Positions 6,352-41,598 of a stretch of 64,000 bases of DNA are shown here, one piece after another (within the stretch, counting starts at the first letter, position 1; each line of letters opens with the position of its first letter). The DNA comes from Candidatus Kaiserbacteria bacterium (GTDB taxonomy: Bacteria > Patescibacteriota > Minisyncoccia > Phycocordibacterales > UBA2100). The notes beneath the pieces were generated by a model. It did no database searches. It was not told where the DNA came from and saw only the letters and a program-made list of their open reading frames with translations. The translations under genes and the position numbers were made by a program. The DNA lies in NCBI GenBank assembly GCA_017134395.1, contig CP070993.1, positions 320,210-384,209 on the forward strand, in the 5' to 3' direction.

Positions 6352-7002
6352 ATGTTCTTCCATGTACTGAATCGTGGTGTAGAAAAACGACCTATAGTCC
6401 ACGATGATATTGACCGAATACGTTTTGTTCATGACCTTTTCATATTCAACAACAAGTGCTCTGTAGACCCAAATCATAGGCTTAAAGAAAATCCATTTGG
6501 TGACCAAGGTAGAGACCCTTTAGTGCATATACATGCGTGGTGTCTTATGGATAATCACTATCACCTACTTCTCTCTCCTGTCGATAATGATGTCGCAAAT
6601 ATTTCGCTTTTCATGAAAAAGTTAAATATGGGGTATGCAAAGTACTTTAATGAAAAATATGAGCGCTCGGGCTACCTGTGGCAAGGAAAGTACAAAAAGA
6701 TAGAAATAGAAAGAGATGCACATTTTCTCTATATCCCTTTCTATATCCATCTTAACCCGCTTGACTACACCCATCCAAATTGGCGCAACGGATCTATTAA
6801 GAATCTAAAAAAGATGTTGTCTGATTTATCTTCATATCGCTGGAGTAGTTACCTAGATTATATGGGCACCAAAAATTTTCCTTCTGTTATAGAAGAACAA
6901 ACATTACATGAAGTGCTCGGTTCGTCATCTAGTCAGAAAAAGCAAATTGCTCAAATTGTTACACAAGCAGATGTAGCTACTCTCTCGAACAACTTCGAAT
7001 AA
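6352..7002 (+). CDS. HuH-family Y1 transposase, REP-associated tyrosine transposase (RAYT) / IS200-like TnpA family
   Basis: 216 aa. The N-terminus is FHVLNRG.EKRPIV, the HuH motif is CLMDNHYHLLLSP, and the C-terminal region is GYAKYFNEKYERSGYLWQGKYK (catalytic-Tyr WQ..Y region). It is flanked on both sides by the family-A palindromes. Confidence 0.65.
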   Translation: MFFHVLNRGVEKRPIVHDDIDRIRFVHDLFIFNNKCSVDPNHRLKENPFGDQGRDPLVHIHAWCLMDNHYHLLLSPVDNDVANISLFMKKLNMGYAKYFNEKYERSGYLWQGKYKKIEIERDAHFLYIPFYIHLNPLDYTHPNWRNGSIKNLKKMLSDLSSYRWSSYLDYMGTKNFPSVIEEQTLHEVLGSSSSQKKQIAQIVTQADVATLSNNFE

Positions 7003-7095: not shown

Positions 7096-7135
7096 TTAAT
7101 TAAATTTAATTTAATTTAATCTTATCTTATCTTAT
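7096..7135. repeat. pentanucleotide tandem repeats (TTAAT/TAAAT)x5 followed by (CTTAT)x3
   Basis: ttaat taaat ttaat ttaat ttaat cttat cttat cttat. The last CTTAT unit overlaps the stop codon (7132..7134) and last codon of the giant gene. Confidence 0.7.
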
Positions 7136-10100
7136 ATTGTTGAGTCGGTAGTGGTTGCTGTTTCTTCTGCAGGTGTGTCTGTTGCCACTGGTTCAATGAC
7201 TTCGTCCACTGTGTCCTCTACCACTTCCTCTTCTACTGTTTCTTCTACTACAGGTTCTGTTGTGTCGTTTACGACTGGTTCAGTACTTGTGGCTGTAGTG
7301 TCTTCTACAACTTCTTCTTCTACGATAACGGGGTCTGTACTGGTTGCTGTGTCGTCTTCAATGACTACGGCAGGAGTTGAAGTGGCTGTGTCTTCTACTA
7401 CTGGTTCTTCAGTTGGTGTTCCTGTTCCCACTATCACGGTGCGTTCGATTGTTGCTGTTTGTTCGTTGGTGTCTGTAGCACTGTAGGTAATGGTGTGGGT
7501 GGCATCTGTGGTGGTGTCTATATCTATAGTGGTGACTGCTTCACCGTTGAGGGTGAGTGTGATGCTTAAGTCGTTACCGTCTGCGTCTTGTGCGGTGATA
7601 CCGAGGTCGCTGTAGTTAGCGTTAAGAGCAATTTCAGCGGGGTTGGTTCCGATGAGGGTGAGGGTTGGTGGGGTTGAAGTAGTTGTTGATGTAGCTTCTG
7701 TTTGAGTGGTTGCTGAAGCGACACCGGCGAGCTGTGCCTCTACCGCTACGAGTCGCTCTTCAAGTGCCGCAATTTGTATGTCCTTAGAACTCTGCCAGTC
7801 AATGAGTTCGGCGATCCTTTTTGTATTCTCCTGCACAATCACCCACAATTCTTTAATTGCCTGTATTAAATACAAAGGTAAGTCAGAAAGGTTAGTATCA
7901 AAATATTCTGTTCCATTAATAGTTGTTGTGCCTACCATTTCAGGGAACGTAACCTTTAATTCTTGTGCAATGAAACCAGAAATACGGCGACTTCGTGTTT
8001 CTTCATCATATCCAGTCAATTCGTTATAGTTATAAGTTACTGGACGTAATTCACTAATTCTTTCGAGGGTAGTAGTATCCTCTGTCGATAACTCGGTAAT
8101 GTTTTCCTTTAGGCGTCGATCGGAATAGTTCGTCCATGCAGTATACCCATTTGCTGCAGGCTGGCCGTTTAATTGAAGTTTATACGTTGGGTTTGTTACA
8201 CCAATACCGACTTCGCCAGCGGGGTCGATAACTATTGCATCATTAGTTATACCACTACCGTAACTATTTGAAGTTCCAAAATGCAATTCCGTTCCAGAAG
8301 GAGTTATCTTTGCTGCTATTCTTGCTAAAGGTACAGCGCTAGATCCAGACGCACCAGCAAAATCAATACTATTGAAATAATTTGCTGTATATGGACTACT
8401 TATTCTTAATACACCATCACTGGTACCAGTAAAAGATGAGATAGATGTTCCTTCTACATGCAATTTCGTGTCGGGAGTATCAATACCAATACCGACGTTG
8501 CCACCTTCAAGAATACGCATGCGTTCGGTTAGTGAACCTGCTGAAGGAGTAGTTGAGAATGTTAAATACCCTTGGTAGTTTGATGAAGCAGTACTTCCTA
8601 CACCCATAGTTATGCTTGAAAGGTCTTGGCGAGCCACTGTACCGGTTGTTGTGATGGTATTTTTAAGAACGGGACTCACACCAGAAACGGCAAAGTTAAC
8701 GGTTGAGTCATTAGAACCAAGGTTAACTGAGAGCTTTGATTCTGGCGTTGTGGTGCCGATACCGACGTTGCCAAGTAGATAGTTGTTTCCTGTACCATCT
8801 ATGGAAAGAGCACCATCTAATTGTAAGTCACCAGCGCGAGATACACTTCCGACAACTGTTGCAGCACCATCTCCAAATTTTATCCCTCCACCAGTAGAGC
8901 CTTCGTCCCAGTTTAAATACACACTTCCCCCTGCGGTAATTGGGTTTATGACGGTATTTACATTGTCTGTCAGTCGAAGTACGTGTGTACCGGCGTCCGC
9001 GATAATGCTTCCGGTAACGTTTATATTTCCTTGTACATCAAGTACTTGCGATGGTGTCGTCGTACCAATACCCACACTACCTTGTACTGCCAAACCATTG
9101 TCGAGCTCGGTTGTGTAGTATGAATCTCCAATTGAAACTCCACCTATTACACCTACGTGACTTCTATCGTATACGCCACTACCTGGGTCGAGCACAATAC
9201 CCGTAGCAAAAGACACTTGTAGTTGTTGATACGTATTTGCTGTCCATGCACCTGCAGTTCTGTAAATTCCGTACCCGGAAGCAGTATGCCAGTAAATACC
9301 TTGACTTCCATCAGTCGTGACATTGTCACCAAAGGTTATTTGCCCTGTCGTTGATAAGTCTAAGTCTCTCGCGGGAGTTGCCGTACCAATACCGACGTTA
9401 TCAGTCCCCGTTGCTAAGTACACATCAGTACCGCCATCAGTCCACCCACCGCCAGATGATGCCGAGAAGTCAGTCCATGCGCCTGCGTTGTTTTTATATT
9501 GAATAGTTCCTGCGTTGTCGCGGAAACCGTAGCCAGTAGTGCCCGTGGTATCGCCCCAGTTGATGTAGCTTGAGGCTGTAAGACCGATGTTGCCTGCAAC
9601 ATCGAGTTTGTGGTCTGGTGTTGAATCTCCAATACCGACGTTGCCACCAACAAGATGCATAATATTTGCCGCGCCTGCACTGAAGAACAGACGGTCAGTA
9701 GCATGATCGTATTGAATACGTCCTATGTCATTATCACTCGGATCACCAAACAAAACCGAACCAACACTTGATGCAGTATTGAAAATGGTCAAGCCAGTAT
9801 TGCCGCTACTTTCAAGAACAAGTTCGTCGCCATTTGAAATTGGACTTCCTACCGCACCAGCGGAACTGTCATAAATCCATACTTTTGCTGAAGGCGTCGT
9901 GGTGCCGATGCCGACGTTGCCTGCATCGTTTACATACAGTTCAGGGTTTCCTGAGATAGTGCCTCCTCCCCATATACCAATACCACCATTTGAACCATCG
10001 CCGTAACCACCAATCGCTCCAGAATATACATCTGATGATCCTTGGAAGGAAATAATCTGCCCGCTCCCTGCCACGGAAACATTCTGTGTATTAGTGTCGA

Positions 10101-13100
10101 GAGTTAGTAGATTTACTATAGAACCATTACTTCCATTTTCTACCAATTGCAATTTCGTAGCTGGGGTGGTGGTTCCGATACCGACGTTGCCGGTGTTGGT
10201 AAAGGTAAGTACATCACCTGCACCATCAATAAAGAGTCGCCCATCATCACCAGTAGGGTTATATAACCAAGCATTACTACCTGAGCTATCACGTGGTCCT
10301 GCAAGGAAGCCTGCACGCGAATCATTACCCGAACGTACAACACCGATAACATCAAGTTTTTCAGTTGGTGTCGTGGTTCCGATGCCGACGTTGCCTGCGG
10401 TGTAGCTGATGTCGGGGCTGTTGTGTGTCCAGAGACCGTTACCGCCGTCAATGCGGGAGCCGGTGAAAGAAGTATATGCACTCCAGCCATTTATATCTTT
10501 ATTGCTTGCACTCGATTGATGGACGTAGACTTCGAAATAATCTGTTGTTCCATTTGCATCTACTACAACACTCACTTGATTCGTTCTAAAAGTACCTGTC
10601 GAAGTCTTATAGTCACTGCTATATAATGCCCCATTCTTGTAAATTGCCATATATGTCTGGTCACTATCTGAGACACTCTCGAATCTTGTTTTTGTTGTTA
10701 ACAAATATTTACCAGCAACCGTTGGGGTAAATCTATCACTCGCAAAATCAGAGTTAGTATCAAAGTGCTCTGTTGTCCAAGCCACCTTTGTCCATGTATT
10801 TCCTGGGATGCTTTGAGCCACATTGTTTCGATGTACCGAGAAGGATGGTGAAATACCGTCCCCTGCGGTGGCAAAGGAGAGGTTGCCACTGGCGTCAGTG
10901 GTGAGGAACTGTCCTGCGGTACCGTCAGCAGTTGGGAGGGTGAAGGTGGTGTTGCTGGTGATGGCGTCTGGTGCCTTCAGAGCAACATAGTTGTCACCGT
11001 TAGCTTCGAGCTCTTCAAAGCGTACTTCACCGGTGTTGCCTGCGGAGGTGCCGAATGGATTAAGTGAAAGTGCTGATGCTGATTCATCAAAGAATAGCGG
11101 TGCGTCACTTGTTGTTCCTCCAATGGCAAGGTCGTCGGTGAGTGAGGTGAGGTAGGTGGTGGTGCCACCGTCGGTGAAGAGTGCGGCACCACTGCCTACT
11201 GCACTACCATTCCAGTACAAACTACCACTAACGTTGTAGAGTGCGTTAACGGTAGTTGCAGGAGTCGTTGAGGCAAGTGAGAGAGCGCCATTAACTGAGA
11301 GTTTGGTGGTGGGGGTGGTGGTGCCGATACCGACGTTGCCTGAGGAGTTGATAGTCAAGTCGCTACCTGAACCAGTTCCAAATTGCACGGCGTATTCTCC
11401 ACGTATAACCATAGCGTTCGTAAGTGCATCGCTAAAGACTTGACCTGGTGTCGCGTAACCAGAATACCCAACCAAAGCGTTTGAATTGTTTTTATATGTT
11501 ATGTACCCAGCAAGATCTGAACCTTGGAAAATAGCGAGGTCAGGGTTGTTTTTATAAAGATGTAATAGCGCTTGAGGGGATGTGGTGCCGATACCGACGT
11601 TGCCTGTACTGTCAATCACCAAATCTGAAGCTGAGTTCGTCCATAAATGTAGGTCACCAGTTGTTTGGTGAACACCTATATTCGCTTCTTGATCTCCGGC
11701 ATTATCGAAGAACGCTAGACCTGGGTAACCACCAGGTGTACCGATTCTTACTGCGTCACCACTACTTATTCCCGTTTTTACACTTAGACCCCAACCAGCC
11801 AACGTAGATGTGCCAATTCCCACATTCCCATTGCTGACATCTGCGAACAACGCTGGTGTACTTGAGGTGCCGACGCGGAAGTCACCCCAGACGTCCAGTT
11901 TAGATGCGGGGGAAGAGGTGCCGATACCAACGTTGCCTGATGAAAGTGTTGATTGAGTACCATCAAGACCTGTACCGTAAATGAGATTTCCAATGACTAA
12001 TTGATTATTGGCTGTTGCGCTCGGTACAGCCACGTTGTAACCAATAGAAATGTTATTTGCACCACTTGTTATTTGGTTTTGTGCTCCAGATAAAGTTGCT
12101 GCACCAATAATAGTGTTATTTGAACCAGTAGTAACTCCATATCCTGATTTGAATCCGAGGAAGGTGTTGTAGTTGCTGCTTGTTGCTGCTGAATACCCAG
12201 ACTGTGTACCAACGTACGTTCCTCCTTCGTTATAATAGTTACTTAAACCTGCTGCTGCTGCTGCACCGACAGCTACTACACTATCTGGTGATGTATTGAA
12301 TCTTAAGGTTCCAATTGCATTACTTAAACCACCAATAGCAACGTTTGAAGAACCGTCAATATTTCCGATACCAGTATAGTATCCAAGAAACACATTTGCG
12401 TTACCAGTAGTGTTGTTAAGCCCTGCATTTGCTCCAAGAAATGAATTGGCAAACCCAGTGGTGTTGTTCATTCCTGATTGTACTCCAATAGCAATACTGC
12501 TCCCACCAATATATGCTGCTCCGCCCGCAGTTGAACTTCGCAGTGCGCGATACCCGATAGCTACGTTGCTTGCCGTTGATGTGGCATTCTCGAGCGCCTG
12601 ATAACCAACCGCAACATTCTTGGTTCCAGTTGTAAGTGAGGAAAGAGCACTCGTTCCTAAAGCGGTGTTTTCATTTCCTGTATGTGTTGTATTGCCAGTG
12701 TTACCAACAAATAGTGAACCCGTAGTTGTGCTTGCTTGCAATATTGTGTTTCCCTCTAACTTGTAACCGTTGCTAGTGTTTATGTAACCAAGTACATCTA
12801 GTTTGGAGCTAGGATTAGTAGTGCCGATGCCGACGTTGCCTGCGCTTGTGACAACCATTTGGTCATTAACACCATTTGTTCTGAATGAGAATCCGTTGCC
12901 AACGTTATCGTAAATTATCCTACCCATAACAGCACTGTCTGTGTCACCAAAATCTAAGAATGATTTTGTAGTAGGTGAGCTAATTATAGAAACTATAGTG
13001 TCACCGCTTCTTTGGAATGAAGCCACCGTTTGTGCAGAAGCAGTTATTGCTGTTCCACTTTGGACGACCTGCAGATTAGTACTTGGTGAGTCTGTTCCGA

Positions 13101-16100
13101 TACCGACGTTGCCTTGATTCATTATTACGTCTCCATCTGACTGAACAAGCAGACTGTCTTGCCCGGCTCCAGCTTGAACAGTAAACGGATAAACGCTTCC
13201 AGCTGTCAAATCTCTAAGGCTAAAATTACCGCCCAGAGAATGAACAAACCATTCCTGATTAGATGCATCACTTTCTTTAAACACTATACCTGGATCATTT
13301 CGCGTAATTCTAAGTTTTTGGTTTGAATCTAATCCATAAGTTGATGCGTCATTTATTGTCAGGGCTGTGCCAACTTCGAGTAATGCACCGCTACCAGATA
13401 TATCTAACTTTGAAGACGGACTCGCTGTACCTATACCCACATTCCCACTACTTACATCAGTAAACAATGCAGGAGTGCTTGAGGTTCCGACACGTAAGTC
13501 GCCCCAGACGTCGAGGGTTGATGCAGGTGAAGTGGTGCCGATACCGACGTTGCCTGTACTTCCGTCTAGCATCAGTAGCCCAGGATAAGACGTTGATGGA
13601 CTGAATGCTATATCACTAGAACCAGAAGCTCCTCTAACAACAAGATTTTTTGTATTTAAATCTGAAAGTCCGGTGTCTCCTACTTCAAAAGAGAAACTTT
13701 GCTGATTACCCGATGTAGTTGAGCCACCAAACAACTGTACTAGACTTGAATCTAAACCTATGCCGTCATAACCAAATTTGCTTACACCAGCAACATGCAG
13801 TAGTGAGTCAGGTGTTGTGGTGCCAATACCGACGTTGCCTGTATTACCCTCCACGAAGAGCATACCGCTACCAACATTTAAGTCAGTGTCGGAATCAAGC
13901 GTAGCGTTAATATCACTCGTGCCTCCAGGCTGGAAAACAATGTTACCTGGCGGCTGTAAGGTAGCAGTACCATCTAATTTCACTTCAGCATTTGCTCCAA
14001 CTATCGTTTGGTTGCCAGAATTGTATCCAATTAGGTTAACCGAGGTTCCAGTCGTCAATCTCGATTTCAAGTATTGATTATTATCTATCTGGATATTACC
14101 TCCCACAACTTCGAGTTTTTGTTCAGGAGTTGTTGTACCGATACCGACGTTGCCTGAAGTATTATTGATATTTAGATTACCAGCATCAAGTGCATTGTTC
14201 CCTCCAATAGATGTATAGCCATCCTCGGCCAAAAGATAGCTTGTTGTATCGTCATCAGAAATAGTGATTACTGCATTGTTATCAGAACTATTAAACAGTG
14301 CCACCGCATTGTAAGTATTAGAGTAGACTCTTAGAGGATTAGCTACTGCCGTTTCGTAAATAGAAAGTGTTGCGTCTGGGGTTGTGGTACCAATACCGAC
14401 GTTGCCGGAGGAATCAATGGTTAGCCTCTCTGTTGCAGTAGTCCAAAGTGATAAATCGTTTGCATTATTATCGTATACGATTCGTCCCATTGTTTGACTT
14501 CCGCTATCACCAAAAAAGATACTAGTGTCTGATGACGTTCCACCCACAATAGATATTCCGGCTGGTCCAATGCCTTCAACAACCAACTCATCCGCACTAC
14601 TAGATACAGCCGGAGCTCCTGATACTGCGCTTGATATGTGCAACTTCCCCAGTGGCGTCGTAGTACCAATACCGACGTTACCCGTACTGGTAATTCGCAG
14701 GCGTTCTGCACGATTAGAACTCGTAATAGTACCTGTGGTGAACGCGAGGCCGTATGCTGCTCCTGTTGCACTGTCTGAGATTGCGCTGATTTCAGCTCCG
14801 ATACCATCTGCATAGGTACCTGTGTAGCTCGCATCATTTGTGATGAAGTTAAGAGAACCTATTCCATCTCCTGTGGTGCGCGCTCCTTGTGTAGAAATGG
14901 AGAGTGCTGTTCCTGTGAGAATTGAGTCTGGATTGGTGGTGCCGATACCAATATTTCCACTCTCATTAACCGTTAAGCGGTCTTGTAGTGTTCCACCTGA
15001 ATCTGAAACCTGTAGCTTGAAATCGCCACCACTACGTTGGAATGCTGCCTTATTTGTAGAGTTATAGGTTATTTGAAATTGTGGCTGGTCTGTCGATAAT
15101 ATCTCTAGGGCAGTGTCTGGACTTGCTGTCCCAATACCAACATTACCTGAGCTTCCTTCGACGAATAATGCATTGACTTCACCAACTCCTTCTACTCTAA
15201 AATCAATGTCTGCTCCGAGTTCGTTGAAAGTGTATGAAGTGGCTAATGCTCTTGAGACCTCTACACCGCCAGCATAGGTTCGTATACCATTAAGGCTATC
15301 CTGGATATAAAAACCTTCTCCGGTAGCTAATGCGTTATTACCTATCCATCCACCATTTACGTCACCTGCAATTATTATACCTTCATGTACTGAATCTGAA
15401 TCTTTAAATCGAGCGAGAACACCGCCGTTTTCGTTATGAACATCAAGTTTGTATGAAGCAGAAGTTGTACCAATACTTACGTTGCCATTTGGGAAAAATA
15501 CAGTACCAACATTATTCGCAGCTCCCATTACTTGAGTAAGATTGGTTCCTGAGTAAATACCAAATCCATTATTTGTATCCCAATTGTGAGATATCACGGA
15601 ACGATAGCTGCTAGGACTGCTAGCATTTGTGAGCTTTACACTAGGATCACTATTGTAAATATGCAATGTCTCTTCTGGCGTCGTGGTACCTATACCAATG
15701 TTGCCAGAGAAGAAACCGTCAATGGTGTACAAATCTTGCCATTGCTTAGATGCAGTACCCAGATCATTTGCATCATTAAAATATGGAGAGAAATCGCTTG
15801 TTAAAAATTGATACTCCCAATTATCATTTTGTCTAACAAATATCTGCCCGTCTCGTATATCAAAGAGATCGCCGCTATCTTTACCGAAGTTACCACCATT
15901 AACACCATCGTATGCATAGATAGTACCCGTAGCTGCACCAAGATCTCCTCCGACATTTAATCCCGTTGCTATAATTACGTCGCCTTCTACATCCAACTTC
16001 GCTCCTGGACCTGTCGTTCCGATACCTACATTACCTTCTATAATCGCACCGTTAGATGGAGCGACAACATTGTTATAGCCAGAACCTACTCGTAATGCTC

Positions 16101-19100
16101 CCTGCACATCAAGTTTGTTAGAAGGAGTTGGATCACCAATACCAATCATATTCGCACTTGAGTCAATGTAGAGCGTATTGTTGTCGAAATCCAAATCAGC
16201 ACTGTTGGTGTCGAGATCGAAGGTGGTGGTGGCGTCTACGGTGAGTGCATCCTTGAACTCAGTGAAGTCGAGTGTGTCTGCGTCGATGAGACTTGCATCA
16301 ATAGTGGTGGTTGAGACGACACCTGAGCTGTTGGTGGTGAGGATGCCTCCGGTGAGTGCAGCAAACTGTACAGAGCCGGTGGTGGTGAGTTGGTTGGCAG
16401 GGGTGGTGGTGCCGATGCCGATGTTGCCTGTGTTTGTTATTCTGAATCTCTCTGCACCACCAGTTTGAACGTTGAAGTCTCCTCCAGTTGCTACTAAATT
16501 AACGAGTCCAGTTCCTGTTTTTAACTGCAATGCAGTAAATCCTCCGTCAGTTTCTATTACAGCAGGTGTACCGGCTGATGCTTGGTACACGATAAGTTTT
16601 TGACTTGGGCTCGCCGTCCCAATACCTACATTCCCACTACTTACATCGGTAAACAACGCTGGTGTGCTTGAAGTACCTACACGTAGGTCACCCCAGACGT
16701 CGAGTTTTGATGCTGGCGTCGTTGTGCCGATTCCGACATTTCCTGCACCTGTTACATATAAATCATCGCTGTTAACGGCAAATACGCCATCTGTGGCGTC
16801 ATGAATAAATACCGTTCCTCCGTCAGTATTCAAATACAAAGAACTGGCAACGCCGGACCCAATTGCTTGAATTTCATTATTATCTATAGCGATAAAATCA
16901 GTATTTGAAGCACCAACCCTTAATGCTCCACCTCCCGAGGAACTGACATCGGTTGAATCCCATACTACAAGTTTTGCCTCTGGTGTTGAAGTACCGATAC
17001 CGACGTTGCCTGAAGTATCTATAGATAGTCTTTCAGTATTCCCAACCATCAAATCTAGTTGATGAGATGATTGTGTACCAAATTTTGCTGCTTGAGGTGT
17101 TCCTGAATCAAACCATCCAGATAATTTTGTCGCTGCATCGTCACCATAAATGGTAACGGCTCCACCATAAGTACCTCCTGCGATATCGAGATTGGTTCTG
17201 AAGTTCATGTTTCCAGGTGTACTAGTACCTATACCGACGTTGCCGGCGCTCGTTATTCTTAACCTCTCAGATGTATCGGATGCACCGGCTGATCCAGTGT
17301 GTAAAGAAACATAATCTTGTCTGAAAACTGCATTTAGAGCAGAGCTAGTGGCTGTTTGATTATTATTTCCCAATTTAGACGAATAAATTCTTATATCGTC
17401 TCCATAGTTTCCCGTATATGTGGAGCCTATCCAAGCTCTGGATGCATTTGTTCCTACCCCCCCTCGTGGAAAGCGAATCCAGCCGCCTTCCTTCCCGTAA
17501 GCTCCACCAGCTGCAATGTCAAAAATATTTGTGGAGTCATCTGCACCTCCAACCAATATACCAAAGGGAGTTCCTCCTGTTATTGTTGTATTCTCACTGT
17601 AGAATCCTGTGGTTGCTAATACCTCCCCAACTACTGCAAGGTTTGCTACAGGACTAGTAGTGCCGATGCCGACGTTGCCTGAATCTGTTATCCGCACCGC
17701 TTCAGTTGCTCCATCTGGGAAAAATCCTATTTTCTTTGAAGCTGTACCTGCATATATATTTACGTCACCAGTAACACTAGTTCCTGAATGCCCGATAATT
17801 AAGTTTTCCGTTGCATCATATCCGATAAGATTTCTATCAAAACCACTAGCTAAACTCCCCTTTAAGAATTGATTATTATCTAAAAGGATATCGCCTTCAC
17901 TAACATGTAATTTTTCAGCGGGTGTAGTAGTTCCAATACCGACGTTGCCAGAGGCATCAATCCTTAACGCCTCGCTACCACTTGTGGAAAAAGCAAGCGA
18001 ATCATTTGCGTGTTCATAATCTATGAGACCTGGACTTCCACTTGTGTCAGAGAAAGTAAGTACTGAATTCCCCGTATCTCCTGCAACATTGGCTTTAATA
18101 TCAACCTGTGTATATCCAGATCCAGAAGTTCTTTCAAACGTAGAGACTAGTTGATCTGCACTTGTTACATGCAGTTTCCCAGAGGGCGTAGTAGTACCAA
18201 TACCTACGTTGCCAGTGTTATCAAGTGTAAGTCGAGGTGTTGATGTCAAATCAGTACCATCAGTAATACGGAATGTATCGTCTACATTGTAATATCCTAC
18301 TGAGTAATCTGTACCACTTCCGAATCGTAGTGGTGTGTTGTTATTTACACGCAGGAATCCACTACCCCACTGCAAAAGATCTGCGCCATTGCTTTTTATA
18401 TAACCATTGACTAAAGCGTTTACATTCAAATATCCTGTCGCATCAACATAAAATTCGCCATAACGTGTTGAACGGTCATCGTACCCGTATACTCGCAAAC
18501 CGTTGTCATCTGCGTTTTGGGCAATCGTCAGACCGAGTGCTGGAGTGGCAGTGTTGATACCAACATTCCCACTACTCACATCGGTAAACAATGTAGGAGT
18601 GCTTGAAGTACCTACACGTAGATCACCCCAGACGTCGAGTGCTGATGCGGGTGAAGTGGTGCCGATACCTACGTTGCCTGAAGTATCTATTGTTAATCTT
18701 GCACCAGCATTTGTTATTAATTGAAGAGGATGACTAGTCTGTGTTCCAATCTGCCCAGCTGACGCTTGTGCCTGTACTTTTACCTTTGCACCTCCTGAGC
18801 GCTCTGCAAGAATATCTGCATTTCCTGTATCAAACACATGTAAAGTACCGTCTGGAGTAGTCGTTCCAATACCGACGTTACCGCCTGTAAGGCGAATGTA
18901 CTCCGTACCACGGTTACTTATTGTCGTATCAACACCAAACGCATAGACTGATCCGAAGTTAATGGTTGAACCATCGTACCCTACAAATCCATAGTTATTA
19001 GTTGCACTTCCTGTTCCAAATTCAATTCCTGCAGGACGTCCTGTTGAGTTTGAGTGTACTCCAACAAGCACTGTTGTTCCTGGGTTTCGTACATCCAGCT

Positions 19101-22100
19101 TATATTCTGAATCTGGTGTTGCTTGAATACCTACACTCCCATTAGAATCAATAATAAACGGAGTTGTATCGCTTGCTGAATCGTTCACAACAAAACTGTT
19201 GCCCGTACCTGTGTTAGTGATGGAGAGTACTTCAGTACCATCTGCTGCTATGTCAGTTGAAGCATCGAGTGCAAGCGCATCCTTAAATTCAGTGAAATCG
19301 AGCGTGTCGGCAGTAACATCAGCACCGTCAACGGTGGTGGTTGAGACAACACCTGAGCTGTTGGTGGTGAGGATGCCTCCGGTGAGTGCGCTAAGAGTAA
19401 GTGCTGATTCAAGTATGGTGTTGCCGGTGATACGTGCGGTGCCTGAGACATCTAGTTTGTATGATGGCGCAGCGTTTCCAAGACCTAACTGCCCAGTATT
19501 ATCAATATAAACAGTCTGAGTGTTATTGGAACCTCCTCCACGCAACTCTAACTTATGTGAATTAGAGTTCTCACCGATGTATGTATTTTGGTTACTAAAA
19601 TAGATATGAGAATTATCGGGACTCAACCCTATAGAGCCAGCAACATCGAGCGCATACGATGGGGTGCTGTCGCCAATCCCCACATTTCCACTACTCACAT
19701 CAGCAAACAATGCGGGAGTACTTGAGGTACCGACGCGTAGGTCGCCCCAGACGTCGAGTGCTGATGCGGGTGAAGTAGTGCCGATACCGACGTTGCCACC
19801 ATCTGCTATCACAATTCCGTCGCCAGCACCTTCACCCCATACATTGAGGTAACCAAAATTAGAGGCTTCGTTGTATCCGATAACAAGGGCGTCATCTGCA
19901 ATTGCGCTTTGTCCTATTGCTATGAAGTCAACATCGTTATCATCTGCATTAGTATTAAAGAAGCTTGCTATGTTTACCGTTCCACTTGAATCAGCTTCTA
20001 CATGCAATTTGGAGTTTGGCGAGGTGGTGCCAATACCGACGTTGCCTCCGGTTGATGGATTGATGTAAGTTTCTGCTCCTTCCAACCATAAATTTTTGTA
20101 AGAAGATGCGCCACGATCGTATGCCTGAACAAATCCATATCCGTTATATCCTAATTCGACTCCAGCACCGGAGGCTGTCATTGACGGCGCTCCAGTTGCA
20201 CGAAGATTTCCGGATACATCTAGAGTTGCCACAGGCGACGCCACCCCCACCCCAACTCTATTCGTTGAACTATCAATCACGAGAGTGTTTGCATCAAAGT
20301 TGAGATCAGCAGAGTTGGTGTCGAGGTCGAAGGTGGTGGTGGCGTCTACGGTGAGTGCATCTTTGAATTCAGTGAAGTCGAGTGTGTCTGCGTCGATGAC
20401 ACTTGCGTCGATAGTGGTGGTTGAGACGACACCTGAGCTGTTGGTGGTGAGGATGCCTCCGGTGAGTGCGCTGAGAGTAAGTGCTGATTCAAGTATGGTG
20501 TTGCCGGTGATACGTGCGGTGCCTGCTACGGTGAGTTTTTCAGCGGGAGTGGTGGTGCCGATACCGACGTTACCTAAATTATTTATCACAATCCCTTTAC
20601 TTGAACCATCAAAACCGTCTCTAGTAATTTTTAAGTTGTCTTCAGAATAATCAACCCCAATGAAACCGTATCTGGGTGTGCCATCAGCATCAGATGCCAT
20701 TCTGATGAATGAGTTGTCTGTATCATTTGTACTCAACCCAATATCTGCAATTCCGGTTGTTGAAAGTACATCTAATTTCCTACCTGGACTACCTGTACCA
20801 ATCCCAACCCTGTTCGTTGAACTGTCAATGTACAAGGTGTTTGAGTCGAAGTTTAAGTCAGCGGAGTTGGTGTCGAGATCGAAAGTTGTGGTGGTATCTA
20901 CCACTAGTGAGTCTGAGAGCTGTGCGAAGTTGAGTGAGTCGTTAACGATGTCTAAGGTGACGGCTGCTGATTCAGTACCAGAATTAGAAACCGTAAAGAA
21001 AGCGTTGCCTGCGTCTGCAAGCGTTGCGAGATAATTACCTGTTGTGTGTGTACCGAGTGTGATGAGGTTGTTAAGTGTGGTGGTTCCTGTGCCTCCGTTG
21101 GTTACAGGAAGAACTCCAGTGACCTCAGTGGTGAGATCAACCGAGGTACCAAGTGTTGTTTCGAGTGATCCTGAATTGAGAGTAAGTCCAGTACCAGTGA
21201 AGTCGGTGATTGTTTCTGAGTTGGTGCGGAATCCACCAGAGGCTCGTGTGACACCAACAACGTCGAGTGGATATGATGGAGTTACTCCTATACCAAAATT
21301 ACCAGATGAATCGAAACGAGCCACCTCTGTATTTGACGTACTAAACAATATCGCGCCAGCTTCCCTGTTGATAATAGCTAGATTTAGTCCGTTTCCTTGA
21401 ATAAGGCTACCGTCAGCAGCCAAAGTGCCTGTTGTTCCGTTAGTAAGTTTTAATTCGGGAAATGAAGTTGCATTGATGTGTAGCCCTGTTCCTCCACCAG
21501 CAAGAGCAGGTGCCGCGGTACCAATACCCACATTTCCTGCTATTTCTATGTCCCCATCACTTTGTGCTACCAACAATTCTGTACCTGCAGAATTTTCCAA
21601 ACGGATTGAACCACCACTTACTATTGGCCTGATATTTGAAAGCCACGCTATGTCAGCACCGTCATTCAATTGTAAATCTCCATCGATATGCAACTTCGAT
21701 CCAGGTGTTGTGGTACCAATACCGACGTTGCCTGCTCCATTAATGATCATTTGTGTATCGAGAGTTCCGTTCGAAGTGGAAAATCGCAAATCGCCGTACT
21801 CTGCACCAGATTCATTTTCAGAACTTATACGAGCACCTATATAATTTTCAGGACTTGCATCATTATTATCCCAATTCTGAAAATCTAAACGTCCATAATC
21901 TGCTCCCGCACTTTGCTTTGCGCCTCCAATGGTAACGGTGCGTTGTACATCAGCACTTCCCCCTCTATCTGCAACTATGTTCCCACCGTAAATATGTAGT
22001 TTCTCACTTGGTGAAGTAGTACCGATACCGATGTTGCCATCCACACCAACAGTCAGTACGCGACTACCACTGAAATCATCAGCTACAAAAATAGGTGCAG

Positions 22101-25851: not shown

Positions 25852-26904
25852 CTATTCAGAAGAGTAGTTGAATTCTGATCCAGGTAGTATGTCTCCGTAC
25901 TTATCTTGCATCATTTCGATGAAAGTATTGTCTTCAAATAAGTTGCTCACAGCATCAAGACCAGAGAGACCAAACAGGTATAGATATGCTCCAGTAGAGA
26001 TAAGAATGAGCGCTAAAATTAGCATGCCTATAACTCCAACAATTGGAAATGAACGCTTTGCGGGTTTACTCTGAATGAAGTAGCTTTCCTCTCGTTCCCT
26101 TTTTTGTACCCCGCCTTCCCGAGATGGTATATTTCTAGGCGTGGTTTGAGTAGTTATCGGTGGAACTGCTCTAGGAGTGGAGACAGGACGAATATCGGGG
26201 TTCATTTGCTTAATTGGAGGGCGTTCACTTAATATATCACCAGACGCATAGGTTTGGGCTTCATTAAATGCAGTTTCTTTTTTTACAGAAGGAATTTCTG
26301 GATTACTTTCAGCTACGTAGCGTACGTTGAAATTGATGTCTCCAGGATCAATATCAGTTTGGATATTTACAGCAACTCCAGTAGCATCCTTTCCAACTGC
26401 TCCCTTCTCAGTACTATAACCTTCAGTGCGTACACCACTGGACTGTGCCTGAACTTCAGCCAGTAGACCATCGTTGTGTTTTTTGTGAGCGATAAGTGAG
26501 TCCTTACCTACAAACCAACGGCGACCTACTTTTCGTGCTTCTAATTCACCACTTCTGGCAAGCTGACCAATATAATCTTGTGCGTAGCCAGTAACAGCAG
26601 CAGCGCGAGATGTTGCGATGTACTCTGTGCCGTCATACTTGAATGTGTCGTCACGAACATTCCCTACCTTCATACCAAGTGCGCTCTTGCCTTGCTCATT
26701 TTTATTTTTTGTATCAGCTTCAACACCATTTTCTTGGTACCGCTTCAACCCATTTTCATCGACATACCAATGCCCAGACACTCGTCGACACTCAATTTTA
26801 TCTTCCCTGCAAAGCTGGCCAATATAGTCCTTCGAATAACCACTCAGCTCTGAAGCACGAGTAGTTGATATTAAAGTGTCATCACCGATAGTAACGTCTT
26901 CCAT
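25852..26904 (-). CDS. membrane protein with two tandem excisionase-type HTH-like modules, a low-complexity linker and a C-terminal TM anchor. It is a 'stub' paralog of the giant protein N-terminus.
   Basis: 350 aa. The modules are RASELSGYSKDYIGQLCREDKIECRRVSGHWYV and SRAAAVTGYAQDYIGQLARSGELEARKVGRRWFV. Both match the giant protein's N-terminal module and the HTH_17 pattern (A..G.s...I..l.R.G.l...rvGrrW.v). The TM helix is IVGVIGMLILALILISTGAYLYLFGL near the C-terminus. Confidence 0.6.
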   Translation of the reverse strand: MEDVTIGDDTLISTTRASELSGYSKDYIGQLCREDKIECRRVSGHWYVDENGLKRYQENGVEADTKNKNEQGKSALGMKVGNVRDDTFKYDGTEYIATSRAAAVTGYAQDYIGQLARSGELEARKVGRRWFVGKDSLIAHKKHNDGLLAEVQAQSSGVRTEGYSTEKGAVGKDATGVAVNIQTDIDPGDINFNVRYVAESNPEIPSVKKETAFNEAQTYASGDILSERPPIKQMNPDIRPVSTPRAVPPITTQTTPRNIPSREGGVQKREREESYFIQSKPAKRSFPIVGVIGMLILALILISTGAYLYLFGLSGLDAVSNLFEDNTFIEMMQDKYGDILPGSEFNYSSE

Positions 26905-33657: not shown

Positions 33658-35889
33658 TTATTGAGATAGCGTACGTATCTCTTCAAGTGCTTGGTCTGCG
33701 ATTACAGTGAATTTTGGATATTCTTTTTTTATGTGCAAAACTTCACTGCGTGCGTTATTTAAATCACCTATTGCGACATATATTCTCGCAAGTGAGAAAA
33801 GTGCACCAACATCGTCTTTTTCAACACTTTCATTTGCCACGAGTGCTTTGGACCACATGTCACGTGCTTGTACATGCAGACCCTTACTTATGAGTGCTGC
33901 GAGTATGTCGGTGTCCCCTGCGTATATAGGTGTTTCGCTTAGTAAAGCAATAGCGTCACTCGCTAAATTAGCCCTAATTAATACATTCGCGTATAAAATG
34001 CGAGCTGATTGATATTCTTTTTCTGCTTCAAAAGAAGTTTTTGCGTATGTGAGAGCGCTTTCCAGATCACCTGAATTTGCAGTCGAAGCTACGAGGAGTG
34101 CCAAAATACGTTGTCTGTCTGGACTGAGTTCAAGAGCTCTTTTGAAATTCTCAGTTGCTTTTGCAAAATCACCAAAACTATAGTGTGTTGAACCAATAAA
34201 GAAAGGGTAGCGTGCATCATTAGGCACACGCTCTTGTTGGTGTGTAAGTGAATTAATAGATGCGTTGTACCATTCGTTCTTTTGTTCTGTAGAAACCCAC
34301 GTAGCTGCGGCTACCTTTCTTGCGGCTTCGCTCCACTGTTCAGCAACCTCTTGCGAACCGTAGGTATCAAATGCGTACGCTTTCTCAAATAATTCTAAAG
34401 CTCTATCTACATTAGATACTGCAGACTCTATACCATTTTCTTGATCTTGATTTGCTTGCAGTTGTGCCACATGTATAGCCGACAAAGCATCAAGTAGTGT
34501 TGTTGATGTACGCCACGGTTGTATGTTTATAAACCATATAGAAATACCGATAGCGAGAACGAGGAGAGGTGCCCCTACTAATACACCAATCTTTTCTGAA
34601 AGAATCAATGTCGTCTGTTCTTTATTTTTCCTAAAGGTCCATACATCATGTGCAGATCCATATATCCATGCGAGTACTGTGAAGAACAGGAGGTAGCTTA
34701 TAACATTATCAAACACTGTTAGGTTATGTATTCCGTACGCAGCGAGTAGCCCTAACAGCAACCACTTTTGGATAATTGTGAAAGCCTCTGTTCTATAGAG
34801 TGTCCATACTGTCGTAAGGAAAATAGAAATATATGTGAGCAACCCAAGAATTCCTGCCGCGATTAACCAGTCAAAAACAACGTTGTGTGTTCTATCGAAC
34901 CACGGTTCTTGACCATACATTCGAGGGTCGTAATACTTATTGAATACGAAGTTGAAGTTCTCTTGACCCCACCCTAGCAATGGCCGCTCCTTAACACCCT
35001 CCCACGCAACTCCCCATATAAGTGTACGAGCGTATACCGTCCCTTCGGAAAGTGAAAGAGTTGCGAACCTTTTAAGAACAGGGCTGTCCTGCACAAATGC
35101 TGTGTCTTTAGCAATCCAAAATGATCCAACACCTAAGACCATGACCACAGTAAGTAAAGCGGCACCAAGCCTAACTTTTCTGTTACCTTTGAGAGATAGC
35201 GAGATTCCAATAACAGCTAGCAACAGTCCCCCAATCACACCAAGTGTTGCACCTCTTGTCGCGGTAAAAAATAGTACGGTAAAGAGAAGCGGTAATGTAA
35301 TGGCAGTAAGAATTTGCTCAGTGCGTTCACTATTGCGCCGTGCTAGTAAAACTAGGGCAATGAAAATATGGAACAAAACGTACACTGCTAAATAAATAGG
35401 ATTTCCCAATGTTGAATCTAAACGACCCTTTTCTGTCAAAAGGAGTTGCCCGATAGCATGCATCGAAACAAATGTGCTGACGACAAGAGATGCGCGCCAA
35501 AGCCATAACCATAGGTTTTGTGTATTCATAACAGCTCCAGCTGCGATTACATACATGAGTGCGTGTATCAACGTCACTAGTCCGTCCATTCTCTCGAAAT
35601 TGCTCCAGATACTTTTAAACGGGTTCTCTCCAAACAAATCAGCCACTGCAACAACCGCCACGAAAGCAAGAATCGATAGTAATAGTGCCGTCCATCGTGG
35701 ACGATACGCAGCGTTGAGTAATGCGAGCAGAATCCAAGCACCAAACATTATTTCAATGATAGAGCGGAAGGCTATATTTTTTCCAACGATGTACGGAAAA
35801 AACGTACTGCCAGAGACAATGAAAACAATCAGTGGCAATGAGAATACACCTGCCAATACAATTCCTCGTAATACCTTCTCTAAATTCAC
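33658..35889 (-). CDS. polytopic membrane protein with an O-antigen-ligase/Wzy_C-like domain and C-terminal TPR repeats (PglL/O-oligosaccharyltransferase-like or O-antigen ligase-like)
   Basis: 743 aa. The N-terminal half has at least 10 hydrophobic helices with FFTATRGATLGVIGGLLLAV (Wzy_C-like). The C-terminal ~300 aa are TPR-like (ALELSPDRQRILALL..., AIGDLNNARSE...). Confidence 0.6.
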   Translation of the reverse strand: MNLEKVLRGIVLAGVFSLPLIVFIVSGSTFFPYIVGKNIAFRSIIEIMFGAWILLALLNAAYRPRWTALLLSILAFVAVVAVADLFGENPFKSIWSNFERMDGLVTLIHALMYVIAAGAVMNTQNLWLWLWRASLVVSTFVSMHAIGQLLLTEKGRLDSTLGNPIYLAVYVLFHIFIALVLLARRNSERTEQILTAITLPLLFTVLFFTATRGATLGVIGGLLLAVIGISLSLKGNRKVRLGAALLTVVMVLGVGSFWIAKDTAFVQDSPVLKRFATLSLSEGTVYARTLIWGVAWEGVKERPLLGWGQENFNFVFNKYYDPRMYGQEPWFDRTHNVVFDWLIAAGILGLLTYISIFLTTVWTLYRTEAFTIIQKWLLLGLLAAYGIHNLTVFDNVISYLLFFTVLAWIYGSAHDVWTFRKNKEQTTLILSEKIGVLVGAPLLVLAIGISIWFINIQPWRTSTTLLDALSAIHVAQLQANQDQENGIESAVSNVDRALELFEKAYAFDTYGSQEVAEQWSEAARKVAAATWVSTEQKNEWYNASINSLTHQQERVPNDARYPFFIGSTHYSFGDFAKATENFKRALELSPDRQRILALLVASTANSGDLESALTYAKTSFEAEKEYQSARILYANVLIRANLASDAIALLSETPIYAGDTDILAALISKGLHVQARDMWSKALVANESVEKDDVGALFSLARIYVAIGDLNNARSEVLHIKKEYPKFTVIADQALEEIRTLSQ

Positions 35890-35971
35890 TCAGTGATTAT
35901 AGCAACGTCATATCCTCTCGCAATCTTAGATAATAATAGTATTATAGAAGTTCATTCAACACGTCTCATTT

Positions 35972-37054: not shown

Positions 37055-37075
37055 TTGCGATAATATATAAAGATT

Positions 37076-39170: not shown

Positions 39171-39182
39171 ATATAAATTTAT

Positions 39183-41549: not shown

Positions 41550-41598
41550 GCTTATATTGTTTTAAGGAAACAAAAAGTATTATAATCCACCCCTAAAT

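What the first reader, a model, noticed from the sequence alone, without database searches (positions are those of the whole stretch)
7790..8140. Peptidase-S74-like intramolecular chaperone motif embedded about 330 aa before the C-terminus
The segment ...YSDRRLKENITELSTEDTTTLERISELRPVTYNYNEL...ISGFIAQELKVTFPEMV... matches the conserved S-D-x-R-x-K-x-N-I ... GFIAQE core of the auto-cleaving C-terminal chaperone domain of phage endosialidases and tail fibres. Here it is not terminal. It is followed by a coiled-coil-like stretch, an Ig-like (DUF5011-type, 'LIGTNPAEIALNANYSDLGITAQDADGNDLS') domain and an acidic TEEPVVEDTATST repeat tail (7135..7700). Autoproteolysis at the Ser would release the distal Ig-like/acidic module from the mature fibre.
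Basis: partly seen in the sequence, partly recalled or inferred. Interest (0 to 1): 0.55.

Follow-up and report, generated by a model that had tools for sequence, protein, structure and literature searches.

The report
Self-cleaving chaperone domain inside giant fibre
A genuine self-cleaving "intramolecular chaperone" domain, best known from phage tail spikes, sits 330 residues before the end of a 5,970-residue membrane-anchored surface fibre of a tiny Candidatus Kaiserbacteria bacterium, so the fibre probably sheds a small Ig-like, acidic end-piece once it has assembled.

Summary

The host is not a phage. The gene lies among housekeeping genes of a Candidatus Kaiserbacteria (CPR) genome. The protein has an HTH_17-like N-terminus, one membrane segment and 45 "GNVGIGTxxP..L" capping loops like those of the Bdellovibrio MAT fibres.

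A non-terminal chaperone domain is common in this lineage. It occurs in 32 of 196 closest relatives and in 12 of 14 relatives longer than 1,500 aa, and all 32 keep S-[D/N/E]-x-R-x-K. Two proteins share the same post-domain module at 56% identity.

Cleavage at Y5640|S5641, which would release a 35.7-kDa fragment, is inferred and not shown. I rate this a new variant of a known kind, of moderate interest.

The parts
7132..25044 (-). Giant ORF: 5,970 aa, 613 kDa, pI 4.2, T+G+S+A+N = 52% of residues, 2 Cys. It is the carrier of the finding.
24874..25038 (-). N-terminal HTH_17-like domain (residues 3-57), presumed cytoplasmic.
   Evidence: 36-40% identical to the two Pfam-verified HTH_17 repeats of the neighbouring ORF 25852..26904 (BLASTP E 1e-13 and 9e-12; HTH_17 in the neighbour). 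Direct Pfam match is only weak (E 0.084).
24424..24498 (-). The only hydrophobic, membrane-span-like segment (residues ~183-207); presumed signal-anchor, N-in/C-out.
   Evidence: Kyte-Doolittle scan of the whole protein. The topology is inferred.
8125..22038 (-). Fibre shaft (residues 1003-5640) with 45 'G-N-V-G-I-G-T-x-x-P-x-x-x-L' capping-loop motifs, mostly 65-110 residues apart.
   Evidence: The motif equals the MAT-fibre and MyRF capping-loop consensus V-G-G/N-pi-x-x-P-x-x-x-L (PMC10769870). The only PDB sequence matches of a 1,500-aa shaft segment are Bdellovibrio fibre proteins (8ond E 4.7e-8, 8ojn E 0.0049). Pfam finds nothing significant in the shaft.
8125..8217 (-). Last capping loop and conserved pre-cleavage stalk (residues 5610-5640, GEVGIGVTNPTYKLQLNGQPAANGYTAWTNY).
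   Evidence: Nearly invariant columns Y22 L24 N27 G28 Q29 P30 N33 G34 Y35 T36 T39 N40 of alignment A1. Aligns to the MyRF stalk in 7dc3.
8107..8124 (-). Catalytic motif S5641-D-R-R-L-K5646. The predicted scissile bond is Y5640|S5641.
   Evidence: S42, D43, R45 and K47 are invariant in 120 sequences. The Ser-Lys dyad and cleavage N-terminal to the Ser are described in PMC3742443, PMC8326128 and PMC10769870.
7696..8124 (-). Complete intramolecular chaperone (S74/ICA) domain, residues 5641-5783. The Pfam S74 core is 7933..8124. The C-terminal helix, residues 5719-5783 (7696..7890), has a continuous heptad pattern.
7663..7695 (-). Thr/Ser/Pro-rich linker (ATSTTTSTPPT). The model is disordered from about residue 5786 to 5815.
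7429..7662 (-). Bact_surface_Ig-like domain (PF16403, ex-DUF5011), residues 5795-5872.
   Evidence: Pfam E 1.6e-9, 38.1 bits, cut-off 27. AF2 models a beta-sandwich with pLDDT 75-87. 56% identical to the same module in P0002 and P0009.
7135..7404 (-). Acidic low-complexity tail, residues 5881-5970: net charge -28, no basic residue, predicted disordered. No LPXTG-type motif was seen on reading the tail and the hydropathy scan found no second membrane segment.

Best explanation
The motif is a bona fide intramolecular chaperone auto-processing domain (Peptidase S74 / ICA). It caps the beta-helical shaft of a giant trimeric cell-surface fibre of a Candidatus Kaiserbacteria (CPR/Patescibacteria) bacterium.

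Proposed course of events:
1. The protein is inserted by its single N-terminal membrane segment. The HTH_17-like head stays in the cytoplasm and about 5,760 residues lie outside.
2. Three chains are brought into register by the parallel coiled coil formed by the domain's C-terminal helix (residues 5719-5783, here about 35 residues longer than the minimal version).
3. This templates folding of the capping-loop-studded beta-helical shaft.
4. Only in the trimer is the S5641/K5646 dyad positioned to cut the Y5640|S5641 bond.

The products are a 577-kDa membrane-anchored fibre chain, whose new C-terminal tip is the conserved ...NGQPAANGYTAWTNY, and a 35.7-kDa fragment. As a trimer, that fragment consists of the chaperone core, a coiled-coil stalk, a Thr-rich linker, an Ig-like domain and an acidic tail. 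The fragment is probably shed.

Shown here: domain identity, catalytic residues, fold, heptad pattern, architecture, cellular context, and recurrence of the arrangement in relatives. Inferred: topology, trimerisation, cleavage, and the fate and role of the released fragment.
For: Domain identity:
- Pfam S74 E 2.9e-15.
- S, D, R and K of S-D-x-R-x-K are invariant in 120 relatives and present here.
- The AF2 model is confident over the domain.
- A continuous heptad register runs through the 65-residue helix.

Precedents for cleavage:
- A non-terminal ICA domain with hundreds of residues downstream cleaves autonomously in MYRF, including in E. coli (PMC3742443).
- A bacterial fibre with the same capping loops (Bd3182) self-cleaves at the SDxxxK Ser, and S782A blocks it (PMC10769870).

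Recurrence:
- All 32 close relatives with more than 170 residues from the Ser to the C-terminus keep S-[D/N/E]-x-R-x-K.
- The same coiled coil + Ig-like + acidic tail module is 56% identical in two independent proteins. One of them is from Patescibacteria bacterium UBA3530.

Context:
- The neighbours are RpiB, GAPDH, transketolase, GatB, Obg and SecA.
- GatB is 100% identical to a Candidatus Kaiserbacteria protein on a 687,746-bp contig.
- Long relatives also lie among ATP synthase, NDK, NrdD and GAPDH genes.
- The N-terminal HTH plus a single membrane segment are shown. The 3,195-aa relative P0190 has the same MerR/HTH_17 + TM + S74 layout.
Against: - No experimental or proteomic evidence of cleavage exists for this protein or any CPR relative.
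- The structure was predicted as a monomer, so the trimer and the geometry of the dyad were not examined.
- A conserved Ig-like domain (56% identity across proteins), and the variety of small beta-sandwich or lectin-like domains that relatives carry at the same place, look like functional tip domains. It is odd to discard these.
- Relatives P0009 (two tandem S74 domains) and P0129 (about 590 further residues with more capping loops after the domain) show the domain can sit truly inside a fibre. Obligatory cleavage there would cut the fibre in pieces.
- The N-in/C-out topology rests on one hydropathy peak only.
Confidence: 0.6

Rival explanations
1. Chaperone without scissors. The S74 domain serves only as a trimerisation and folding nucleus. 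It either is not cleaved or stays bound after cleavage. The coiled-coil stalk, Ig-like domain and acidic tail would then remain as the distal adhesive tip of the mature fibre, like the beta-sandwich tips of the non-S74 Bdellovibrio MAT fibres.
For: - The post-domain module is conserved (56% identity to P0002 and P0009).
- In relatives it is replaced by other small binding-type domains: PF16403 again in P0127 (E 8.5e-19), plus sub-threshold K1-lyase_C, H_lectin and Laminin_G_3 matches. This is the pattern expected of exchangeable fibre tips.
- Because the N-terminus is the membrane anchor, the C-terminus is the distal end.
- P0009 and P0129 carry fibre-like sequence downstream of an S74 domain.
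Against: - The catalytic S, D, R and K are invariant, including in all 32 extended relatives. A purely structural role should tolerate loss of the dyad in at least some.
- Every S74/ICA domain with an intact dyad that has been tested (endoNF, T5, Bd3182, MYRF) cleaves on trimerisation.
- The closest solved relative, MyRF ICA, makes almost no contacts with its upstream stalk (PMC8326128), which argues against non-covalent retention.
Confidence: 0.2
2. Prophage or phage-derived tail fibre or endosialidase gene, as the family name suggests.
For: PHROGs tail-fibre families match the domain (phrog_1980 E 1.4e-15 and six others). NCBI names the relatives 'tail fiber domain-containing protein'.
Against: - The protein is 5,970 aa with an N-terminal HTH and a membrane anchor.
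- All Pfam-annotated flanking genes are cellular housekeeping genes, apart from an IS200-like Y1_Tnp gene at its 3' end and an HTH_17 membrane protein just upstream.
- A scan of 2.9 million viral contigs for the post-domain module found none.
- In all seven matching PHROG families the domain lies at or within about 15 positions of the end of the profile, whereas here 220 residues follow the match.
- Long relatives also sit among housekeeping genes.
Confidence: 0.02
3. Artefact: a terminal S74 domain fused to a downstream Ig-like ORF by a sequencing or assembly error or a lost stop codon.
For: Most relatives (136 of 196) end 95-130 residues after the Ser.
Against: - The helix and its heptad register run without a break through the point where short relatives stop.
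- The same fused architecture occurs in independent assemblies: TARA/UBA3530 contig L001 and a JGI contig.
- 30 further extended relatives exist.
Confidence: 0.02

Closest known systems
Bdellovibrio bacteriovorus MAT ('mosaic adhesive trimeric') fibre proteins, S74 subgroup, e.g. Bd3182 (Caulton et al. 2024, PMC10769870)
   Same: - A chromosomally encoded bacterial surface fibre.
- A repeated capping-loop motif V-G-G/N-pi-x-x-P-x-x-x-L on a beta-helical shaft (45 copies here).
- Bdellovibrio fibre proteins are the only PDB sequence matches of the shaft.
- An S74 domain with SDxxxK directly after the last capping loop.
- Self-cleavage was shown for Bd3182 and blocked by S782A.
   Different: - The Bdellovibrio S74 members 'terminate' in the S74 domain and are about 1,000 aa. 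This protein is 5,970 aa and has 187 further residues after the domain (linker, Ig-like domain, acidic tail).
- MAT proteins start with a signal peptide followed by a conserved ~130-aa beta-rich domain. This one starts with an HTH_17-like domain and a membrane anchor.
- It combines an S74 domain with the kind of beta-sandwich tip that in Bdellovibrio replaces S74.
- The host is a CPR bacterium, not a predator.
Myelin regulatory factor (MYRF/MyRF) ICA domain, PDB 7dc3
   Same: - It has the same capping loop, stalk and S...K layout.
- It is the established precedent that a non-terminal ICA domain, followed by a long downstream region, trimerises through its C-terminal coiled coil and cleaves itself (PMC3742443, PMC8326128).
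   Different: - In MYRF the DNA-binding domain and the ICA domain are on the same side of the membrane, and the membrane span lies downstream of the ICA. Cleavage therefore frees a transcription factor.
- Here the membrane span lies between the HTH and the ICA, 5,400 residues upstream. Cleavage cannot free the HTH and instead frees the C-terminal piece.
- MYRF is eukaryotic; this protein is from a CPR bacterium.
Phage C-terminal intramolecular chaperone domains: K1F endosialidase endoNF (3gw6), T5 L-shaped tail fibre pb1 (4uw8), GA-1 neck appendage (3gud)
   Different: - Sequence identity is only 9-18%.
- In phages the domain is the very end of the protein, as in all seven matching PHROG profiles.
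- The long 'tentacle' of endoNF is replaced by the short MyRF-like version.
- The carrier is cellular, not viral.

Membership tests
[quoted passage not shown] | Profile match above Pfam's gathering score | tested here: met
   56.7 bits against a cut-off of 22, E 2.9e-15, profile positions 1-57 of 58.
[quoted passage not shown] | Ser-Lys catalytic dyad in S-D-x-x-x-K (endoNF S911/K916; MyRF S587/K592) | tested here: met
   S5641 and K5646 are present. S, D, R and K are invariant in the 120-sequence alignment A1.
[quoted passage not shown] | ICD fold: beta-hairpin core followed by a long C-terminal helix | tested here: met
   [not shown]
[quoted passage not shown] | C-terminal helix forms a parallel trimeric coiled coil that drives trimerisation | tested here: inconclusive
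   A heptad pattern is present and continuous over 65 residues (a/d occupancy 0.68; a fraction of 0.001 of 2,000 shuffles reach it). The oligomeric state could not be modelled with the tools available.
[quoted passage not shown] | Trimerisation-dependent autoproteolysis N-terminal to the Ser | not testable with these tools
   This needs expression of wild-type against S5641A/K5646A constructs, or proteomics.
[quoted passage not shown] | Position at the extreme C-terminus (typical of phage members; not defining, as MYRF shows) | tested here: not met
   330 residues run from the Ser to the end, against 95-130 in 136 of 196 relatives. In the PHROG profiles the domain lies at or within about 15 positions of the profile end.
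MAT (mosaic adhesive trimeric) fibre family of Bdellovibrio | Repeated capping-loop motif V-G-G/N-pi-x-x-P-x-x-x-L on a beta-helical shaft | tested here: met
   45 motif copies between residues 1003 and 5610. PDB matches are 8ond E 4.7e-8 and 8ojn E 0.0049, and 8on4/8oml E 0.002-0.004.
MAT (mosaic adhesive trimeric) fibre family of Bdellovibrio | Signal peptide followed by a conserved ~130-aa beta-rich N-terminal domain (PMC10769870) | not tested
   No Bdellovibrio N-terminal sequence was available for comparison. The N-terminus here is visibly different: an HTH_17-like domain, then a membrane segment at residues ~183-207.
Bact_surface_Ig-like (PF16403, ex-DUF5011) | Profile match above the gathering score, and a beta-sandwich fold | tested here: met
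   38.1 bits against a cut-off of 27, E 1.6e-9, full profile 1-71. AF2 models beta strands with pLDDT 75-87. Foldseek neighbours are Ig/PKD-type domains.
MYRF-type membrane-bound transcription factor | DNA-binding domain and ICA domain on the same side of the membrane, so that self-cleavage releases the DNA-binding part | tested here: not met
   The only membrane segment (residues ~183-207) lies between the HTH (3-57) and the ICA (5641-5783). Cleavage at S5641 leaves the HTH attached to the membrane span.

The most novel reading that the evidence does not exclude
The piece behind the cleavage site is not a throw-away. It would be a second functional product, or an assembly tether, that is typical of very long CPR fibres.

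In this reading, the Ig-like or lectin-like head and the wall-spacer-like acidic tail hold the far C-terminal ends of three about 5,800-residue exported chains at the cell's own surface, so that they can find each other and nucleate the trimer. Self-cleavage then acts as a one-shot release latch. It frees the folded fibre tip and leaves (or sheds) a trimeric mini-lectin.

This would explain three things: why post-domain modules are the rule in the long relatives (12 of 14 above 1,500 aa, against 20 of 182 shorter entries; Fisher p = 3.5e-9); why they end in low-complexity Thr/Pro/Glu tails; and why the catalytic dyad is always kept.

Caveat: the length trend is confounded by lineage and by fragmentary metagenomic proteins.
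Probability: 0.2. Interest if true: 0.7.

Novelty: new variant of a known kind. Interest (0 to 1): 0.45.

Why it matters
CPR/Patescibacteria are tiny and mostly uncultured, and many live attached to other cells. How they make contact is largely unknown. This locus suggests that a Kaiserbacteria cell builds a fibre that could be hundreds of nanometres long. That figure is my extrapolation from about 0.04 nm per residue in the Bd2133 crystal structure. The building blocks are the same ones (capping-loop beta-helix plus self-cleaving chaperone) that Bdellovibrio uses to grasp prey and phages use to grasp hosts. I found no paper in the searched library linking S74/ICA domains to CPR bacteria.

The non-terminal arrangement recurs in relatives and is followed by exchangeable small binding-type domains. 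This suggests the "chaperone" fragment has a role beyond folding. That idea can be tested directly with one recombinant construct and one point mutant. It also gives a bacterial counterpart to MYRF, until now the textbook case of an internal ICA domain.

Tried and rejected
- NCBIfam scan of the last 700 aa: no family.
- Pfam on the remaining 5,270 aa of the protein: nothing significant. The shaft is recognisable only by the capping-loop motif and by the Bdellovibrio PDB entries.
- Word-indexed homologue search with the post-domain module alone (130 aa): no hit at E <= 1e-3. This spent one of the three capped searches. Pairwise BLASTP against P0002 and P0009 then showed the 56% identity.
- Scan of viral contigs for the module: none.
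- Scan of species-representative genomes: only two loci. One is UBA3530 (the same protein as P0002, cut by the contig end). The other is a Saccharibacteria surface protein that shares only the Ig-like domain and has no S74.
- Exact look-ups of the window's GAPDH and GatB to retrieve the source contig: not on record. The taxon was obtained instead from the 100%-identical NCBI GatB entry.
- Tandem-repeat search of the acidic tail: no real array.
- Single-sequence AF2 of the apparently globular insertion at residues 4590-4880: mean pLDDT 39, unusable. It has no PDB or Pfam sequence match either.
- AFDB50 fold search: library not available.
- MYRF-like logic (release of the HTH): considered and rejected on topology.
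- Prophage origin and assembly artefact: considered and rejected (see rival explanations).
Full report
**1. Observation**

The finding lies in a single open reading frame, window 7132..25044 on the minus strand, encoding 5,970 residues. The Ser of the quoted SDRRLKENI is residue 5641 (codon 8122..8124). From that Ser to the C-terminus is exactly 330 residues.

A Pfam scan of the last 700 residues gave two hits above the curated cut-offs:
- Peptidase_S74 (PF13884): E 2.9e-15, 56.7 bits against a cut-off of 22, covering profile positions 1-57 of 58, at residues 5641-5704.
- Bact_surface_Ig-like (PF16403, the former DUF5011): E 1.6e-9, 38.1 bits against a cut-off of 27, at residues 5795-5872.

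Only one such motif occurs in the window in any frame.

**2. Is it a complete, catalytically equipped domain?**

- Sequence conservation. In an alignment of the region with 119 database relatives, the invariant columns are S42, D43, R45, K47, P69, A94, Q95 and P102 of the query. These include S5641, D5642, R5644 and K5646. The Ser-Lys pair is the catalytic dyad in endosialidase (S911/K916), MYRF and Bd3182. Mutating it blocks cleavage in each (PMC3742443; PMC8326128; PMC10769870). Another 30 or so positions are at least 90% conserved. They include the 20 residues before the Ser (…LNGQPAANGYTAWTNY), so the cleavage-site "cable" and stalk are part of the conserved unit.
- Predicted structure. 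An AF2 model of residues 5600-5970, built on that alignment, is confident (pLDDT above 90) over most of the domain. It shows small beta elements followed by one 65-residue helix, residues 5719-5783.
- Direct PDB sequence search. The best hit is again MyRF (E 1e-5). The alignment runs from the capping loop before the Ser to the end of the helix.

**3. The "coiled-coil-like stretch"**

In MyRF the C-terminal helix of the ICA domain forms the parallel triple coiled coil that is the main driver of trimerisation. Mutations in its heptad positions abolish cleavage. Here the corresponding helix shows one continuous heptad register over 65 residues. Strongly hydrophobic residues occupy 68% of a/d positions, against 45 +/- 5% in shuffles, and a fraction of 0.001 of 2,000 shuffles reach that value.

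Most relatives end 95-130 residues after the Ser, and 28 of 196 end at 130-170. The coil is therefore the domain's own helix, lengthened by roughly 35 residues. It is not an extra module.

What is extra:
- a Thr/Ser/Pro linker, disordered in the model;
- the Ig-like domain (pLDDT 75-87);
- a 90-residue tail with 23% T, 20% V, 20% E, 11% D, no basic residue and net charge -28, predicted disordered.

The tail has three loose [E/D]DT(T)ATST motifs but is not a DNA-level tandem repeat.

**4. What carries it**

This is not a phage.
- The Pfam-annotated flanking genes encode a PfkB kinase, transketolase halves, ribulose-phosphate epimerase, RpiB and GAPDH on one side, and GatB, Obg and SecA on the other. 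An IS200-like Y1_Tnp gene abuts the 3' end, and an HTH_17 membrane protein lies just upstream.
- GatB is 100% identical to an NCBI protein of "Candidatus Kaiserbacteria bacterium" on a 687,746-bp contig. The next-best hits are Patescibacteria/Parcubacteria.

Layout of the giant protein:
- Residues 3-57 are 36-40% identical to the two HTH_17 repeats of the neighbouring ORF 25852..26904.
- The only hydrophobic segment in 5,970 residues is at about 183-207. I infer an N-in/C-out signal anchor, so the C-terminus is the distal end.
- Residues 1003-5610 contain 45 copies of G-N-V-G-I-G-T-x-x-P-x-x-x-L, mostly 65-110 residues apart. The last copy lies 31 residues before the Ser.
- This is the capping-loop consensus (V-G-G/N-pi-x-x-P-x-x-x-L) that Caulton et al. 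defined on the beta-helical shafts of the Bdellovibrio MAT fibres and also found in MyRF.
- In agreement, the only PDB sequence matches of a 1,500-residue shaft segment are Bdellovibrio fibre proteins (8ond E 4.7e-8; 8ojn E 0.0049).

**5. How unusual is the non-terminal position?**

All seven matching phage protein families (PHROGs) have the domain at or within about 15 positions of the end of the profile. Here 220 residues follow the match. Among the closest relatives, however, the arrangement is common.

An exhaustive phmmer search with the domain alone (residues 5610-5785) found 17,670 proteins at E <= 1e-3. I pooled the 150 best of these with the hits of the first search. In that pool, 196 proteins carry the motif:
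- 136 end 95-130 residues after the Ser.
- 28 end 130-170 residues after it.
- 32 (16%) have more than 170 residues after it.
- By length, the extended form occurs in 12 of 14 proteins above 1,500 aa, in 9 of 33 of 700-1,500 aa, and in 11 of 149 below 700 aa (Fisher p = 3.5e-9 for above versus below 1,500 aa).

This trend is confounded. Many short entries are contig-edge fragments, and the long ones that carry names are all Paceibacterota/Parcubacteria.

All 32 extended proteins keep S-[D/N/E]-x-R-x-K. Their tails fall into recurring types:
- (A) coiled coil + PF16403 Ig-like + acidic or Pro-rich tail. Members are this protein, P0002 (= Patescibacteria bacterium UBA3530), P0009 and P0127 (PF16403 E 8.5e-19).
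- (B) helix + a short Cys-loop motif + low-complexity tail.
- (C) an "EMKD..TG..YC" motif + tail.
- (D) a long coiled coil + a beta domain ending "...FDWFIVE", with sub-threshold K1-lyase_C similarity.
- Single cases with sub-threshold H-lectin-like or Laminin_G_3-like matches, and a T9SS sorting domain in P0115.

The type-A module is 56% identical between this protein and both P0002 and P0009. The ICD of P0002 differs visibly more from this protein's. The module is therefore conserved in its own right and is not an assembly artefact.

Three long relatives whose loci could be fetched also lie among housekeeping genes. One of them (P0190, 3,195 aa) repeats the MerR/HTH_17 + membrane segment + S74 layout.

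**6. Mechanism**

Established knowledge:
- S74/ICA domains nucleate trimer folding of the upstream beta-helix.
- The Ser-Lys dyad becomes competent only in the trimer, and the bond N-terminal to the Ser is then cut.
- This works autonomously in heterologous hosts, and it works with a long downstream region, as in MYRF.

Applied here (inference): the three exported chains are zipped at their C-terminal ends by the extended coiled coil, the shaft folds, and Y5640|S5641 is cut. That leaves a 577.5-kDa membrane-anchored chain ending in the conserved ...YTAWTNY, and a 35.7-kDa acidic fragment (pI 4.05). The closest solved relative, MyRF, has almost no contacts between the ICA domain and the stalk, so I expect the fragment trimer to dissociate.

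My estimates are about 0.97 for the domain identity, about 0.7 for cleavage, and about 0.55-0.6 for the full account including shedding of the fragment.

The main rival (0.2) is that the piece stays on as the adhesive tip. The conservation and exchangeability of the post-domain heads favour this, as do relatives with fibre sequence downstream of the domain (P0009, P0129). The strict retention of the catalytic residues argues against it.

**7. Comparison and novelty**

It works like the S74 subgroup of the Bdellovibrio MAT fibres and like MYRF's ICA domain. It passes every membership feature of PF13884 that could be tested, except terminal position, which is not defining.

It differs from MAT proteins in four ways: size (about six-fold longer), the N-terminal HTH + membrane anchor, having both an S74 domain and a beta-sandwich head, and its host. 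It is not MYRF-like in logic, because the membrane span separates the HTH from the cleavage site.

Full-text searches found no paper connecting S74/ICA domains with CPR/Patescibacteria. I therefore class it as a new variant of a known kind. The domain family, the chemistry and the idea of an internal ICA domain are all known. What appears undescribed is the giant CPR fibre context and the recurrent post-domain "coiled coil + small binding domain + low-complexity tail" module.

**8. Verdict**

- Observation: confirmed.
- Interpretation: partly supported. The domain calls are right. The coil belongs to the domain. The carrier is cellular, not phage. Release of the distal module is a sound inference but untested.
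- Interest: moderate (0.45).

Noticed in passing
window 6352..7002 (+); L003 15663..16322: An IS200-like Y1_Tnp gene (PF01797) lies directly at the 3' end of the giant fibre gene in the window. Another lies directly after the 3,195-aa relative P0190 in L003. The two proteins are 28% identical (E 7e-20). No such gene is present next to relatives P0153 (L005) or P0123 (L006). This may be coincidence or a recurrent association.
   Followed up: partly
window 25852..26904 (-): The ORF just upstream of the giant gene encodes two HTH_17 repeats, one membrane segment (residues ~288-306) and a short tail. It has the same HTH-then-membrane-anchor layout as the giant protein's N-terminus and is 36-40% identical to it. 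The role of a DNA-binding-type fold on the cytoplasmic side of surface proteins is unexplained.
   Followed up: partly
window 33658..51754: A Wzy_C/TPR protein is followed by a ~15-kb glycan-synthesis cluster: GDP-mannose dehydratase, epimerases, DegT aminotransferase, flippase, several GT2, a GT11 fucosyltransferase, an FkbM methyltransferase and a GT4. Its G+C is lower (0.38-0.40) than the rest of the window (0.43-0.45). It might decorate the Thr-rich fibre or the envelope. SecA lies at 30901..33516.
   Followed up: partly
window 10495..11127 (-), residues ~4640-4850 of the giant protein: A stretch without capping loops looks like a globular beta-rich insertion in the shaft. It has no Pfam or PDB sequence match, and single-sequence AF2 was unusable (mean pLDDT 39).
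   Followed up: partly
window 11995..12747 (-), residues ~4100-4350; window 22645..23757 (-), residues ~430-800: Two other shaft sub-regions have different repeat styles. One is an 'N-x-A-x-G-x-x-A-L' stretch that, from reading alone, recalls YadA-type head repeats. The other is an N-proximal 'T-N-A-T-S-T-N / L-x-A-T-x-x-x' repeat region. Pfam found nothing in either.
   Followed up: no
giant protein residues 1764, 2137, 2782, 3845, 4384 (and 1527, 1887, 2897): Near-identical internal modules recur within the protein: 'DVWGD[LF]RVGTSSTP' five times, and 'LTGGILTTNSSGVVSTTT' and 'FDLDTNSADL[ND]FD' three times each. This points to growth of the gene by internal duplication.
   Followed up: partly
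P0009 (662 aa) and P0129 (927 aa), database relatives: P0009 carries two tandem S74 domains (Ser at 198 and 367) before the same Ig-like module. P0129 has its S74 domain at residue ~240, followed by ~590 residues that contain further GNVGIG capping loops. If these domains cleave, the fibres would be cut into pieces.
   Followed up: no
P0121 (5,875 aa), database relative: This second giant capping-loop protein has 44 matching stretches. It starts and ends in mid-repeat and shows no S74 motif. It is either a fragment or a non-S74 giant fibre.
   Followed up: no
window 51757..55735 (-): A ComEA-like HHH_3 protein carries PKD and lamin-tail domains. Next to it is a TrwB/TraG-like coupling-ATPase homologue. 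They may be DNA-uptake or type IV-like machinery.
   Followed up: no
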